From assembly GCF_044324875.1 (NCBI RefSeq), contig NZ_CP172185.1: a stretch of DNA of 64,000 bases; one strand, written 5' to 3'. The notes under the pieces were generated by a model, which worked only from the letters and a program-made list of their open reading frames with translations, did no database searches and was not told the DNA's origin. Within the stretch, counting starts at the first letter, position 1; each line of letters starts with the position of its first letter. This document shows, piece by piece, positions 15,053 to 15,904 of the stretch. The position numbers and the translations under genes are program-made. The stretch comes from Escherichia coli (GTDB lineage Bacteria; Pseudomonadota; Gammaproteobacteria; Enterobacterales; Enterobacteriaceae).

Positions 15053-15257
15053 TCAGGATAGCTTTGGCCTCATTCAGCGCCATATCAGCACTAAGTTGCA
15101 TAACCGCCAGCGAATGAGGAACGAAAGCCCCGGCATATTCTGTTTCACTGGTGGCGTGCTTATGTGCCCTGTCAGCAATAACAGAAATATCAATAAGCGC
15201 GTGCATCAGCGTAGTGAGCGCGGCGGCGGCTGCGTCCGGACGGATGTTATTGCACAT
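15018..15257 (-). CDS. hypothetical protein
   Basis: 79 aa ORF, overlapping neighbours. Confidence 0.4.
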   Translation of the reverse strand: MCNNIRPDAAAAALTTLMHALIDISVIADRAHKHATSETEYAGAFVPHSLAVMQLSADMALNEAKAILIADCENGGGYA

Positions 15258-15420
15258 GGCACACCTCCTGACGAATACGGGAAACGAAGATAAGACGGTC
15301 AGCCGGAATCAGGGCGCGGGCTTCGCGCTCAGTGGCAGCGGTGACGGTGTGAAGGTGGATGTTTTTACCGTGGCACTGCATGAAGCGCCAGACAAAGTAA
15401 GGGCGTGTGAATACAGCCAT
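15247..15420 (-). CDS. Icd-like (cell division inhibitor-like) small protein, paralog A
   Basis: C-terminal 57 aa of ORF 15247-15831 (MAVFTRPYFVWRF...TEREARALI...SRIRQ); paralogous to 15707-15904; resembles Icd/Kil-like proteins of P4-type elements as I recall them. Confidence 0.5.
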   Translation of the reverse strand: MAVFTRPYFVWRFMQCHGKNIHLHTVTAATEREARALIPADRLIFVSRIRQEVCHVQ

Positions 15421-15706
15421 GTGAAAGGCTCCTGTAGTGAAATTAAGGAGTCTCGCTACTACGCTGTCAAACATGGTGGCGAGACGTAACAGGGTTGACA
15501 GACTGGCACTACAGGAACCAGCGAGCGCAAAGGCTCCCCCGTTACGCCCCGCCATAATGCGGGTATGGGTAGGCTTACGGACACAAAAAAACCGCATATC
15601 GGAATGTAAGCGGCTGTCCGCTGTAGTATTCAGGCTGTCAAACCCGGTCGCCATGTGGGCGACACAGGAAGAATACAGCCCTGTGATAATTTTTTGCAAG
15701 CGGTTT
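15421..15706 (-). other. Structured, repeat-rich intergenic region between Icd-like paralogs (candidate regulatory RNA / attenuator)
   Basis: GCTGTCAAAC x2 plus complementary TTGACAG; several short hairpins (GTCTCGC/GCGAGAC, GTCGCC/GGCGAC, CCTGTAGTG/CACTACAGG). Confidence 0.35.
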
Positions 15707-15904
15707 TTACACATGGGCCACCCCCTGACGGATACGGGCGGCGAATACAGCGACACAACCGGACGGGCAACGGTTACGCGCTTCGCGTTCCGTCCAGGCG
15801 GTGACGTGGATGATTTGGGATTCTCCGGCACTCAGTGCCAGAAAACGCCACACAAAGGCGGTTTGTGTGTGCGCAAGGCGTGGGGTATGCTGTGTTCCAG
15901 CCAT
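15707..15904 (-). CDS. Icd-like small protein, paralog B
   Basis: C-terminal 65 aa of ORF 15707-16792 (MAGTQHTPRLAHTQTAFVWRF...TEREARNR...ARIRQ). Confidence 0.5.
   Translation of the reverse strand: MAGTQHTPRLAHTQTAFVWRFLALSAGESQIIHVTAWTEREARNRCPSGCVAVFAARIRQGVAHV

What the first reader, a model, noticed from the sequence alone, without database searches (positions are those of the whole stretch)
15247..15904. Tandem Icd-like paralogs separated by a ~290-bp hairpin- and repeat-rich segment (possible RNA-based immunity / attenuation element)
Two small proteins sharing FVWRF...TEREAR...RIRQ signatures are encoded in tandem, and the DNA preceding each shows related sequence, so the unit appears duplicated. 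The copy nearer the replication genes carries an extra structured insert with GCTGTCAAAC twice, the complementary TTGACAG, and several short perfect hairpins. One reading frame stays open across the entire spacer, which is unusual for non-coding DNA. This resembles the immunity region of P4-like satellites, where a processed RNA pairs with complementary leader sequences to terminate transcription before the replication genes; here it would gate the Icd-like and replication operon.
Basis: partly seen in the sequence, partly recalled or inferred. Interest (0 to 1): 0.65.

Follow-up and report, generated by a model that had tools for sequence, protein, structure and literature searches.

The report
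P4/P1-type antisense-RNA immunity module
The structured spacer between two small Icd-like genes is a known kind of phage and satellite "immunity" switch, the C4/CI antisense RNA with its matching target sites as in phages P1 and P4, here placed before the replication genes of a 15-kb capsid-encoding phage satellite in E. coli.

Summary
Two Icd-like genes lie in tandem on the minus strand (15904..15707 and 15420..15247). The 286-nt spacer between them is structured, repeat-rich and open in one reading frame.

The spacer holds a C4 antisense RNA (Rfam RF01695, 72.3 bits, E 4e-12). It also holds the upstream a1/b1 target element with an IsrK-like terminator. The downstream a2/b2 targets follow, and b2 covers the Shine-Dalgarno of the second icd gene.

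In 99 related loci, 27 b'-loop types and 3 a' types each co-vary with both of their targets. Phage P4's own immunity region scores as the same families.

The open frame is conserved (0 stops against 37 stop sites in the other two frames). It shows no codon periodicity. It fits a P4 eta-like read-through ORF, coupled here to the upstream icd paralog.

Downstream lie a RepA-family helicase, iterons and capsid genes, as in a capsid-forming PICI (cf-PICI). C4/isrK hits in Gram-negative PICIs are already published.

Verdict: a real feature, correctly interpreted, and a new member of a known kind.

The parts
15905..16088 (-). Divergent intergenic region upstream of icd-like-1. It is the presumed regulated promoter/operator region and carries three GTGCGAT(T/G)CA repeats and a palindrome.
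   Evidence: Repeats D10/D14 and inverted repeat I17. The same three sites are present in 4 of 22 other tandem loci. The promoter function is inferred, not shown.
15707..15904 (-). icd-like-1 (65 aa), the upstream paralog. No C4 target was found at its ribosome-binding site.
   Evidence: NF033153, 64.9 bits. Alignment with P1 Icd. The duplex scan found no clean target site upstream of it.
15247..15714 (-). eta-like read-through ORF (155 aa). Its ATG (15714..15712) overlaps the icd-1 stop (15709..15707). It runs through the internal promoter, a1/b1, the terminator, C4, a2 and b2, and continues in frame into icd-like-2.
   Evidence: ORF list. The ATG-N4-TAA junction is conserved in 23/23 tandem loci. 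The frame has 0 stops in all 34 loci counted (32 satellite-type plus 2 'other' subtype); the stop-site count was made on 33 of them, 25 distinct spacers, and gave 37 stop sites in the other two frames. PGAP annotates it as a CDS. P4 eta has the same layout.
15670..15699 (-). Internal promoter-like site TTGCAA-N18-TATTCT. The predicted start near 15663 coincides with the 5' end of the IsrK-like element. It is the positional equivalent of P1 P51b and P4 PLE.
   Evidence: Read from the sequence. The -10 aligns with the annotated P1 P1c4/P51b -10 TATAGT. P4 has TTGCCT-N18-TATAGT at the same position. This stretch is nearly invariant among tandem loci. The generic promoter scan did not flag it. Inferred.
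15627..15676 (-). a1/b1 (seqA-like) target element. a1 is UUGACAG at 15641..15635, in a hairpin loop. b1 is ACUACAG at 15627..15621.
   Evidence: Rfam c4-a1b1, 44.0 bits (gathering 46.7; P4 itself scores 44.1). b1 is complementary to the cognate loop in 98/99 loci.
15585..15663 (-). IsrK-like short-RNA unit ending in an intrinsic-terminator-like hairpin. The stem is GCCGC (15614..15610) with GCGG (15595..15592), followed by a U run (15591..15585).
   Evidence: Rfam isrK, 35 bits (below the gathering score of 50). The segment is conserved with P1/P7.
15472..15559 (-). C4/CI-family antisense RNA. By homology with P1 the mature form is predicted at 15553..15475. The b' hairpin loop is at 15519..15507 (GGUUCCUGUAGUG). 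The single-stranded a' is at 15501..15495 (CUGUCAA). The 3' end is GCCACCA.
   Evidence: Rfam RF01695, 72.3 bits, E 3.9e-12, full length. About 80% DNA identity to P1 c4. The consensus fold has 9 of 28 pairs with compensatory changes.
15464..15470 (-). a2 target (UUGACAG), 4 nt after the predicted C4 3' end.
   Evidence: Alignment with the annotated P1 a2. It co-varies with a' (GUCAA/UUGAC, GCUAA/UUAGC, CUCAA/UUGAG).
15427..15439 (-). b2 target CACUACAGGAGCC. It forms a 13-bp duplex with the b' loop (one G-U pair) and covers the Shine-Dalgarno AGGAG (15433..15429) of icd-like-2.
   Evidence: Inverted repeat I2. Duplex energy -23.8 kcal/mol. A cognate match of at least 7 nt is present in 99/99 loci at a fixed position.
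15247..15420 (-). icd-like-2 (57 aa), the kil/icd equivalent and the direct target of C4.
   Evidence: NF033153, 51.1 bits. Third-codon-position excess of variation.
12689..15257 (-). Downstream operon gated by the module. It holds four small ORFs (15257..15018, 15052..14804, 14814..14569, 14563..14276), a RepA-family helicase (14279..12873) and iteron-like repeats (12689-12874).
   Evidence: PHROG and NCBIfam hits. RefSeq annotation of the homologous island. Repeats D1/D2.

Best explanation
The spacer is the immunity module of a roughly 15-kb capsid-forming PICI-like satellite. It is of the IsrK/seqA-C4/CI type known from phages P1, P7 and P4.

Inferred immune state:
- A weak internal promoter (15699..15670) makes a leader that carries the a1/b1 sites and an intrinsic terminator (the IsrK-like unit).
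- Read-through of that terminator produces the C4 RNA, which is processed to about 79 nt.
- The two exposed segments of C4, a' and the b' loop, pair with a2 and b2 on transcripts of the same operon.
- b2 covers the ribosome-binding site of icd-like-2, so icd-2 is not translated.
- The untranslated RNA is then terminated or made polar before the small ORFs and the helicase gene. The satellite stays quiescent, and a second copy with the same a/b specificity is repressed in trans.
- The a1/b1 element is a second pairing site, acting as a competitor or termination aid.

Inferred induced state, by analogy with P4 eta:
- An upstream promoter (15905-16088) transcribes icd-like-1.
- Ribosomes finishing icd-1 re-initiate at the overlapping ATG (15714).
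- They translate straight through the terminator, C4 and the target sites into icd-2.
- This overrides the antisense block and opens the replication operon.

Shown here: the RNA family membership, the complementarities and their covariation, the gene content, and the conserved open frame. Inferred: promoter use, RNA processing, termination, and read-through by translational coupling.
For: RNA family and homology:
- Rfam C4 at 15559..15472, 72.3 bits against a gathering score of 45, E 3.9e-12, full-length model.
- c4-a1b1 at 44.0 bits and isrK at 35 bits lie directly upstream.
- The segment 15651..15462 is about 80% identical to the P1 c4 region. In P1, the a1, b1, C4, a2, b2 and icd features are annotated in the same order.
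- The four-way alignment already shows P1-type against P7-type a sites and four b specificities, each matched in loop and targets.

Covariation:
- In 99 distinct loci there are 27 b' loop types and 3 a' types.
- The cognate b2 match is at least 7 nt in 99/99 loci and the cognate b1 match in 98/99, at fixed positions.
- Non-cognate loop and flank pairs mostly match over 5 nt or fewer.
- C4 stems show compensatory changes in 9 of 28 pairs.

P4 equivalence:
- The P4 immunity region scores C4 74.9, isrK 60.8 and c4-a1b1 44.1 bits.
- Its ORF ends in an Icd-like domain at 73.9 bits.
- Its 214-aa ORF starts at an ATG overlapping the stop of the alpA homolog.
- PMC10111431 describes eta, kil, CI and seqA and reports C4/isrK hits in Gram-negative PICIs. 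PMC3632133 equates seqA with IsrK and CI with C4.

Open frame:
- All 34 loci counted (32 satellite-type, 2 of the 'other' subtype) have 0 stops in the icd-2 frame across the spacer.
- In the 25 distinct spacers among 33 of those loci, the other two frames carry 23 and 14 stop sites, 34 of them polymorphic.
- Compensating +1/-1 indels are seen.
- The ATG-N4-TAA junction is present in 23/23 tandem loci.

Context: a helicase, iterons, SSB, capsid, protease, portal and terminase genes lie downstream.
Against: - There are no expression data. Promoter use, RNase P processing, RNA stability and termination are all unverified.
- The c4-a1b1 and isrK scores are below Rfam's gathering thresholds (44.0 against 46.7, and 35 against 50).
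- The internal promoter matches only 8 of 12 consensus positions, and the generic scan did not flag it.
- The spacer ORF shows no third-codon-position excess (0.065/0.065/0.046), and about 35 residues are frame-shifted in some relatives. Translation is therefore supported only by the absence of stops and by the P4 and Gifsy-1 precedents.
- In Gifsy-1 the IsrK element acts as an activator of downstream translation (PMC4825925), so the sign of the a1/b1 effect here is uncertain.
- No antirepressor lies downstream, unlike P1.
Confidence: 0.85

Rival explanations
1. The spacer is simply protein-coding. It would be the N-terminal extension of a 155-aa Icd-like protein, as RefSeq annotates it, and the RNA-like features would be incidental.
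For: The frame is open in the window and in all 34 loci counted (32 satellite-type, 2 of the 'other' subtype). Its ATG is conserved and overlaps the icd-1 stop. PGAP calls it a CDS in E. coli genomes. There is a weak full-length match to phrog_29966.
Against: The spacer shows no codon-position periodicity, while both icd genes do. The amino-acid sequence is frame-shifted over about 35 residues in some relatives. The 98 spacer-encoded residues alone hit no PHROG family. The RNA model match, the stem covariation and the three-way loop and target covariation cannot be explained by coding. The spacer is more conserved at the nucleotide level than the flanking genes. The best reading is dual use, not coding only.
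Confidence: 0.05
2. The element is a purely cis-acting leader or attenuator, with alternative hairpins and a terminator, and no trans-acting processed RNA and no immunity function.
For: An intrinsic-terminator-like hairpin lies in the leader. In Gifsy-1 the homologous region works partly through alternative intramolecular structures (PMC4825925).
Against: The locus is homologous to P1 c4 and P4 CI, which are processed trans-acting RNAs (PMC3632133). The hypervariable, combinatorial a and b specificities, matched at three sites, are the signature of selection for specificity between elements. One genome carries three modules, all with different b' loops (L013-L015).
Confidence: 0.07
3. The module is a decayed remnant that no longer regulates anything in this island.
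For: The c4-a1b1 and isrK scores are below gathering. A related island carries a partial Icd-like pseudogene.
Against: All pairings are intact: 13 bp for b'/b2, 7 bp for b'/b1, and 7 nt or more for a'/a1 and a'/a2. C4 scores like the P4 CI RNA. The P4 c4-a1b1 score is the same (44.1). All island genes appear intact.
Confidence: 0.03

Closest known systems
Phage-plasmid P4 immunity region (PLE - seqA - CI RNA (seqB) - seqC - kil/eta - epsilon ... alpha)
   Same: The order of parts is the same: internal constitutive-type promoter, a1/b1 (seqA) element with terminator, C4-family RNA, a2/b2 (seqC) with b2 over the Shine-Dalgarno of an Icd-like ORF, then replication genes. [quoted passage not shown]
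   Different: The eta-like ORF is coupled to an extra Icd-like paralog instead of the AlpA/Vis homolog. The replication protein is a RepA-family helicase, not the P4 alpha primase. The island encodes its own capsid, portal and terminase, as in a cf-PICI, and has no sid/psu/delta genes. Outside the RNA elements the sequences are unrelated (BLASTP E 2.6).
Phage P1/P7 immI operon (P51a/b - a1 b1 - c4 - a2 b2 - icd - ant1/2)
   Same: It is the closest relative at the nucleotide level, at about 80% over 190 nt. The a' specificity is the same as in P1 (CUGUCAA). The a1, b1, C4, a2, b2 and icd order is identical.
   Different: No antirepressor lies downstream. The b' specificity differs (CCUGUAGUG against CACUAAC). 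P1-type loci have stop codons in the icd frame across the spacer, 2-5 in most of them, whereas this lineage has none. There is no C1 operator context.
Salmonella Gifsy-1 IsrK - orf45/STnc1160 - anrP
   Same: An IsrK-like short RNA with a leaky terminator sits upstream of a C4-like processed RNA. That RNA is overlapped by a translated ORF whose nucleotide sequence, but not its peptide sequence, is conserved, and which is coupled to the downstream gene (PMC4825925).
   Different: In Gifsy-1 the overlapping ORF ends at the start of an antirepressor gene. There is no Icd-like gene fused to it and no replication operon downstream.
Gram-negative PICIs / cf-PICIs (EcCICFT073, EcCIEDL933)
   Same: The island has int, alpA, a replication module, and capsid, protease, portal, connector, HNH and terminase genes. 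It is about 15 kb and integrated in the E. coli chromosome. C4 and isrK Rfam hits in such islands are reported in PMC10111431.
   Different: The PICI papers read here discuss only AlpA as regulator. They contain no occurrence of Icd (as a protein), 'antisense' or 'cell division'. The tandem icd arrangement is present in only 23 of the 99 C4 loci sampled.

Membership tests
C4/CI antisense RNA (Rfam RF01695) | Sequence and structure match to the covariance model above the gathering score. | tested here: met
   72.3 bits against 45, E 3.9e-12, model positions 1-87 of 87. P4 CI scores 74.9.
C4/CI antisense RNA (Rfam RF01695) | Long closing stem plus two hairpins, supported by compensatory changes. 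| tested here: met
   The RNAalifold consensus matches the Rfam structure. 9 of 28 pairs show changes on both sides in 30 sequences including P4.
IsrK/seqA-C4/CI immunity module (P1, P7, P4 type) | Two exposed segments of the RNA (a', b') are complementary to a downstream pair of sites (a2, b2 = seqC), and one of those sites covers the ribosome-binding site of the next ORF. | tested here: met
   a' 15501..15495 pairs with a2 15470..15464. b' 15519..15507 pairs with b2 15439..15427, over the AGGAG. The cognate match holds in 99/99 loci.
IsrK/seqA-C4/CI immunity module (P1, P7, P4 type) | A second pair of target sites lies upstream (a1, b1 = seqA), in an IsrK-like element with a terminator. | tested here: met
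   a1 is at 15641..15635 and b1 at 15627..15621. b1 is cognate in 98/99 loci. The Rfam scores are just below gathering (c4-a1b1 44.0 against 46.7; isrK 35 against 50), but P4 itself scores 44.1 for c4-a1b1.
IsrK/seqA-C4/CI immunity module (P1, P7, P4 type) | An Icd/Kil-like small ORF lies immediately downstream of the targets. | tested here: met
   NF033153 at 51.1 bits for icd-like-2. 93 of 99 loci have an Icd-like ORF there.
IsrK/seqA-C4/CI immunity module (P1, P7, P4 type) | The RNA is processed from the operon's own transcript (RNase P) into a stable species of about 77-80 nt. | not testable with these tools
   Only the tRNA-like 3' GCCACCA and the homology to the annotated mature P1 C4 are visible.
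IsrK/seqA-C4/CI immunity module (P1, P7, P4 type) | Pairing causes a translational block and premature (Rho-dependent) termination before the downstream genes, and gives immunity in trans. | not testable with these tools
   Inferred from the family (PMC4825925, PMC3632133, PMC10111431). There are no functional data for this locus.
P4-type arrangement specifically | An eta-like ORF overlaps the promoter, seqA, CI and seqC, lies in frame with the Icd/Kil ORF, and is coupled to an upstream gene. | tested here: met
   ORF 15714..15247. The ATG overlaps the icd-1 stop. The frame has 0 stops in all 34 loci counted (32 satellite-type, 2 'other'). The P4 ORF 8812..8168 has the same layout.
P4-type arrangement specifically | Replication genes lie downstream of the module. 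| tested here: met
   RepA-family helicase at 14279..12873 and iterons at 12689-12874.
P4-like satellite (element class) | Presence of sid, psu and delta genes and the alpha primase. | tested here: not met
   No such genes were found among the island ORFs tested. Instead the island has a major capsid, protease, portal, connectors, HNH and terminase genes. The module is P4-like, the element is not.
P1 immI operon | An antirepressor (ant) gene is translationally coupled downstream of icd. | tested here: not met
   The downstream ORFs match only PHROGs of unknown function and DUF4222, followed by a helicase.
Capsid-forming PICI (context) | int plus alpA plus a replication module, plus its own capsid, protease, portal, connector and terminase genes, about 15 kb in size, with no tail genes. 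| tested here: met
   The island spans about 3634-18640, between E. coli core genes. Absence of tail genes was judged only from the ORFs tested.

The most novel reading that the evidence does not exclude
In this cf-PICI lineage the read-through (eta-like) ORF has been re-wired. It is translationally coupled to a duplicated Icd paralog rather than to AlpA/Vis.

Selection appears to keep the frame open rather than to keep the peptide. There are 0 stop sites in that frame against 37 in the other two, compensating indels occur, and the middle segment is frame-shifted in some relatives. On this reading, ribosome transit itself is the switch that overrides the antisense immunity.

Together with at least 27 b specificities and 2-3 a specificities that reassort freely, this would give a combinatorial immunity code. 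Such a code would let several satellites and P1-like prophages coexist in one cell without cross-repression.
Probability: 0.35. Interest if true: 0.4.

Novelty: new member of a known kind. Interest (0 to 1): 0.25.

Why it matters
The PICI papers read here name only AlpA as regulator, and one states that the existence of a master repressor in Gram-negative PICIs is unclear (PMC6092414). Here a complete P4/P1-type antisense immunity module sits directly between alpA and the replication genes of a capsid-forming PICI. That makes an RNA repressor layer directly testable for this class of satellite.

It also matters for annotation. RefSeq labels the RNA region as an Icd-like protein CDS in all 25 listed rows of the 141 E. 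coli genomes that carry this spacer. The C4 RNA is therefore not visible in the annotations inspected.

The mechanism itself has been known for about 30 years from P1 and P4, and Rfam C4/isrK hits in PICIs have been published, so the gain is incremental.

Tried and rejected
- A protein-pattern scan of genome contigs with the Icd alignment confirmed no loci, because the proteins are too short for tblastn. It was replaced by DNA-pattern scans of the C4 5' stem. These only sample the P1-like and satellite-like sequence subfamily, so the 99 loci are not an unbiased census.
- A thermodynamic duplex scan of the whole island with the b' and a' probes was not discriminating. Many GC-rich bulged duplexes scored like the true sites. 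I rely on perfect-match covariation instead.
- The scan gave no evidence that icd-like-1 is a C4 target.
- The generic sigma-70 scan did not flag the internal promoter. It was identified only by alignment to the annotated P1 P51b and to the equivalent P4 position.
- BLASTP of P4 eta against the window's 155-aa ORF shows no peptide similarity. The homology lies at the RNA/DNA-element and Icd-domain level only.
- The primary P4 papers (Forti 1999, PMC94026; Sabbattini 1995, PMC176756) are not held. P4 mechanism statements are taken second-hand from PMC10111431, PMC4825925 and PMC3632133.
- I considered a riboswitch or attenuator-only reading and a coding-only reading, and rejected both (see rivals).
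Full report
**What is there**

All relevant genes are on the minus strand.
- icd-like-1 lies at 15904..15707 (65 aa) and icd-like-2 at 15420..15247 (57 aa).
- The two proteins are 46% identical and share the FVWRF, TEREAR and RIRQ signatures with P1 Icd.
- Both exceed the NCBIfam cut-off for NF033153 'phage_ICD_like', at 64.9 and 51.1 bits against 25.
GCTGTCAAAC is at 15463-15472 and 15634-15643, and TTGACAG is at 15495-15501.
- The spacer folds much better than shuffles, z = -3.84.
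- It is open in the frame of icd-2 (ORF 15831..15247). Only 2.5% of dinucleotide shuffles show that.

One correction applies. The longer direct repeats are the 3' coding ends of the two paralogs plus the overlapping start codon of the following ORF. They are not upstream leaders.

**Identity of the spacer**

A scan of the whole window against Rfam places a full-length C4 antisense RNA (RF01695) at 15559..15472 on the minus strand. It scores 72.3 bits against a gathering score of 45, E = 3.9e-12.

A permissive scan adds two elements just upstream:
- the 'a1, b1 targets of C4' motif (RF03163, 15676..15627, 44.0 bits against 46.7);
- an isrK-like element ending in GCGGUUUUUUU (15663..15585, 35 bits against 50).

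The segment 15651..15462 is about 80% identical in DNA to the c4 region of phages P1, D6 and P7. The P1 record annotates, in this order, promoters P51a/b, a1, b1, C4, a2, b2, icd and ant.

Aligning the window with P1, P7 and a related E. coli island maps every element:
- a' = CUGUCAA (15501..15495);
- a2 = UUGACAG (15470..15464);
- a1 = UUGACAG (15641..15635), in a hairpin loop;
- b' = loop GGUUCCUGUAGUG (15519..15507);
- b2 = CACUACAGGAGCC (15439..15427), a 13-bp duplex that buries the AGGAG Shine-Dalgarno 8 nt before the icd-2 ATG;
- b1 = ACUACAG (15627..15621).

**Comparative test**

DNA-pattern scans with the conserved 5' stem of C4 returned 12 genome loci from Escherichia, Pectobacterium, Brenneria, Serratia and others. 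They also returned 120 IMG/VR loci. After removing duplicates, 99 loci could be parsed.

- The stems are nearly invariant. The b' loop occurs in 27 versions and a' in 3.
- For every locus the cognate loop has a perfect complement of at least 7 nt at a fixed position downstream (99/99).
- The same holds upstream in 98/99 loci.
- Loops paired with flanks of other loci mostly match over 5 nt or fewer.
- a' and a2 co-vary in the same way: GUCAA/UUGAC, GCUAA/UUAGC, CUCAA/UUGAG.
- a and b types reassort freely, with 35 combinations seen.
- One Escherichia genome carries three modules with three different b' loops (L013-L015).
- The consensus fold of 30 diverse C4 sequences, including the P4 CI RNA, reproduces the Rfam structure. 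It shows compensatory changes in 9 of 28 pairs.

This is strong evidence for a functional antisense and target system in this family, and the window's copy has every pairing intact.

**Relation to P4**

Scanning P4 itself gives the following.
- C4 scores 74.9 bits at 8507..8420.
- isrK scores 60.8 bits, above gathering, at 8692..8615.
- c4-a1b1 scores 44.1 bits.
- The old P4 'cI' ORF ends in an Icd-like domain (NF033153, 73.9 bits).
- The full P4 ORF (8812..8168, 214 aa) starts at an ATG overlapping the stop of orf88, the alpA/vis homolog. It runs through the PLE-like promoter, seqA, CI and seqC into kil.

Published work agrees.
- It states that seqA and CI of P4 are structural homologs of IsrK and C4 (PMC3632133; PMC4825925).
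- It states that the constitutive promoter is internal to eta and that CI/seqA pairing terminates that transcript.
- It reports that Rfam C4 and isrK hit several Gram-negative PICIs (PMC10111431).

The P4 analogy is therefore homology, not just resemblance.

**The open reading frame**

The window's ORF has its first ATG at 15714..15712, overlapping the icd-1 stop (15709..15707). It is preceded by the purine run CAGGGGG.

- This ATG-N4-TAA junction is present in all 23 loci that share the tandem icd-C4-icd layout.
- All 34 loci counted (32 satellite-type and 2 of the 'other' subtype, each with a downstream icd) have no stop in the icd-2 frame from -150 to the icd-2 ATG.
- The stop-site count was made on 33 of these, which give 25 distinct spacers with mean pairwise identity 81%. 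The other two frames carry 23 and 14 stop sites, 34 of them polymorphic.
- One-nucleotide indels occur only in compensating pairs: a +1 in b1 or in the b' loop together with a -1 in the terminator loop.
- By contrast, the spacer shows no third-position excess of variation (0.065/0.065/0.046). icd-1 (0.11/0.11/0.20) and icd-2 (0.07/0.08/0.15) do show it.
- The peptide is frame-shifted over about 35 residues in one sub-lineage.
- The 98 spacer-encoded residues alone hit no PHROG family.
- Most P1-type loci have 2-5 stops in this frame.
- Single-icd satellite-type loci start the same long ORF at an ATGA overlap with a different upstream ORF.

The best reading is an eta-like read-through ORF whose openness, not its peptide, is maintained. 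In Gifsy-1, orf45 overlaps the C4-like STnc1160, is translated, has a conserved nucleotide sequence but a variable amino-acid sequence, and drives the downstream gene by coupling (PMC4825925).

**Promoter**

TTGCAA-N18-TATTCT (15699..15670) would start transcription near 15663, exactly at the 5' end of the isrK-like match.
- Its -10 aligns with the annotated P1 P51b -10.
- P4 has TTGCCT-N18-TATAGT at the same place.
- This stretch is almost invariant among tandem loci.
- It matches only 8 of 12 consensus positions and the generic scan missed it, so it is an inference.

**Context**

- The flanks are E. coli core genes at 99% identity: mdtJI and neighbours up to about 3633, and tqsA-pntB from about 18640.
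- The roughly 15-kb insert encodes the following genes:
  - integrase (18637..17408) and AlpA (17033..16845);
  - a divergent YlcI/YnfO-family gene;
  - the module described here, followed by four small ORFs;
  - a RepA-family helicase (14279..12873) and SSB;
  - major capsid, protease, portal, head closure, adaptor, HNH and large terminase genes.
- Iteron-like repeats lie at 12689-12874.
- This is the gene content and size of a capsid-forming PICI. It is not a P4-like satellite, because no sid, psu, delta or alpha gene was found.
- The PICI papers I could read discuss AlpA only. They do not contain the terms Icd (as a protein), antisense or cell division.
- 141 of 5426 complete E. coli genomes carry this spacer. 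In all 25 listed rows the feature annotated under it is an 'Icd-like protein' CDS, and no RNA feature appears in the loci inspected.

**Mechanism proposed**

The sequence and comparative steps are shown here. The dynamic steps are inferred from the P1, P4 and Gifsy-1 systems.

In the quiescent state:
1. The internal promoter yields the IsrK-like leader.
2. Read-through of its terminator yields C4, which is processed to about 79 nt.
3. C4 pairs through a' and b' with a2 and b2 and occludes the icd-2 ribosome-binding site.
4. The untranslated RNA is terminated or polar before the helicase gene.
5. a1/b1 gives a second pairing site. Whether it competes with C4 or aids termination is uncertain, given the activating role of IsrK in Gifsy-1.

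On induction:
1. Transcription from the regulated region at 15905-16088 includes icd-1.
2. Ribosomes re-initiate at 15714 and translate through the terminator, C4 and the target sites.
3. This overrides the block and expresses icd-2 (as a fusion) and the replication operon.

**Verdict**

The module is a new member of the well-known C4/CI immunity family, in a satellite class where Rfam hits have been reported but not studied. The tandem-icd coupling variant and the breadth of a/b specificities are modest additions.

Noticed in passing
window 12-135 (-): A full-length match to the Hfq-binding sRNA STnc490 (RF01405, 146.4 bits) lies at the very start of the window. It is outside the island.
   Followed up: no
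window 12689-12874: Three copies of TTTTGCTCCCCACTTTTT at a spacing of about 84 nt, plus two copies of TT(T/G)TTAAATTCCCCACT, lie immediately downstream of the helicase gene. They look like iterons and are probably the island's replication origin.
   Followed up: partly
window ~3634-18640: The finding sits in a roughly 15-kb island between E. coli core genes (the mdtJI side and tqsA-pntB). The island carries int, alpA, a helicase, SSB, a major capsid, protease, portal, connectors, HNH and terminase genes, which is cf-PICI-like content. E. coli strain Ch1 has a different insert of about 11 kb at the same site. No att direct repeat of 16 nt or more was found.
   Followed up: partly
window 15905-16088: Three GTGCGAT(T/G)CA repeats (one inside the palindrome TGGTGCGATGCACCA) and a 9-nt inverted repeat lie between the divergent ylcI-like gene and icd-like-1. 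The arrangement looks like operators. The same three sites occur in only 4 of 22 other tandem loci.
   Followed up: partly
window 15409-15424 vs 15671-15686: A 16-nt direct repeat (15 of 16 identical) links the icd-2 start region (TCACATGGCTGTATTC) to the -10 region of the internal promoter (TCACAGGGCTGTATTC). Related islands keep the similarity. It hints that the a1/b1 leader arose by duplication of the a2/b2-icd start.
   Followed up: no
L095:1432-1876 (IMG/VR UViG_2744054454_000028): Two complete C4 modules lie in tandem 357 nt apart. They have different a' and b' specificities and both lie inside one long open frame leading to an Icd-like domain.
   Followed up: no
L136:2643-2922 (E. coli ZH063): A related island at uvrB carries a third, partial Icd-like pseudogene between alpA and the ylcI-like gene. 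This suggests repeated duplication or recombination of icd units in these islands.
   Followed up: no
window 15247-15288, 15703-15745; L137 8168-8200: The C-terminal RIRQ(G/E) codons (CAGGGGG / CAGGAGG) of both icd genes double as the Shine-Dalgarno for the overlapping start of the next ORF. P4 kil/epsilon has the same junction (GGAGGTGTCCCGTGCGTAA).
   Followed up: partly
window 18835-19719 (+): The tqsA ORF next to the integrase is listed as only 294 aa from a GTG start. The integration may have altered its 5' end.
   Followed up: no
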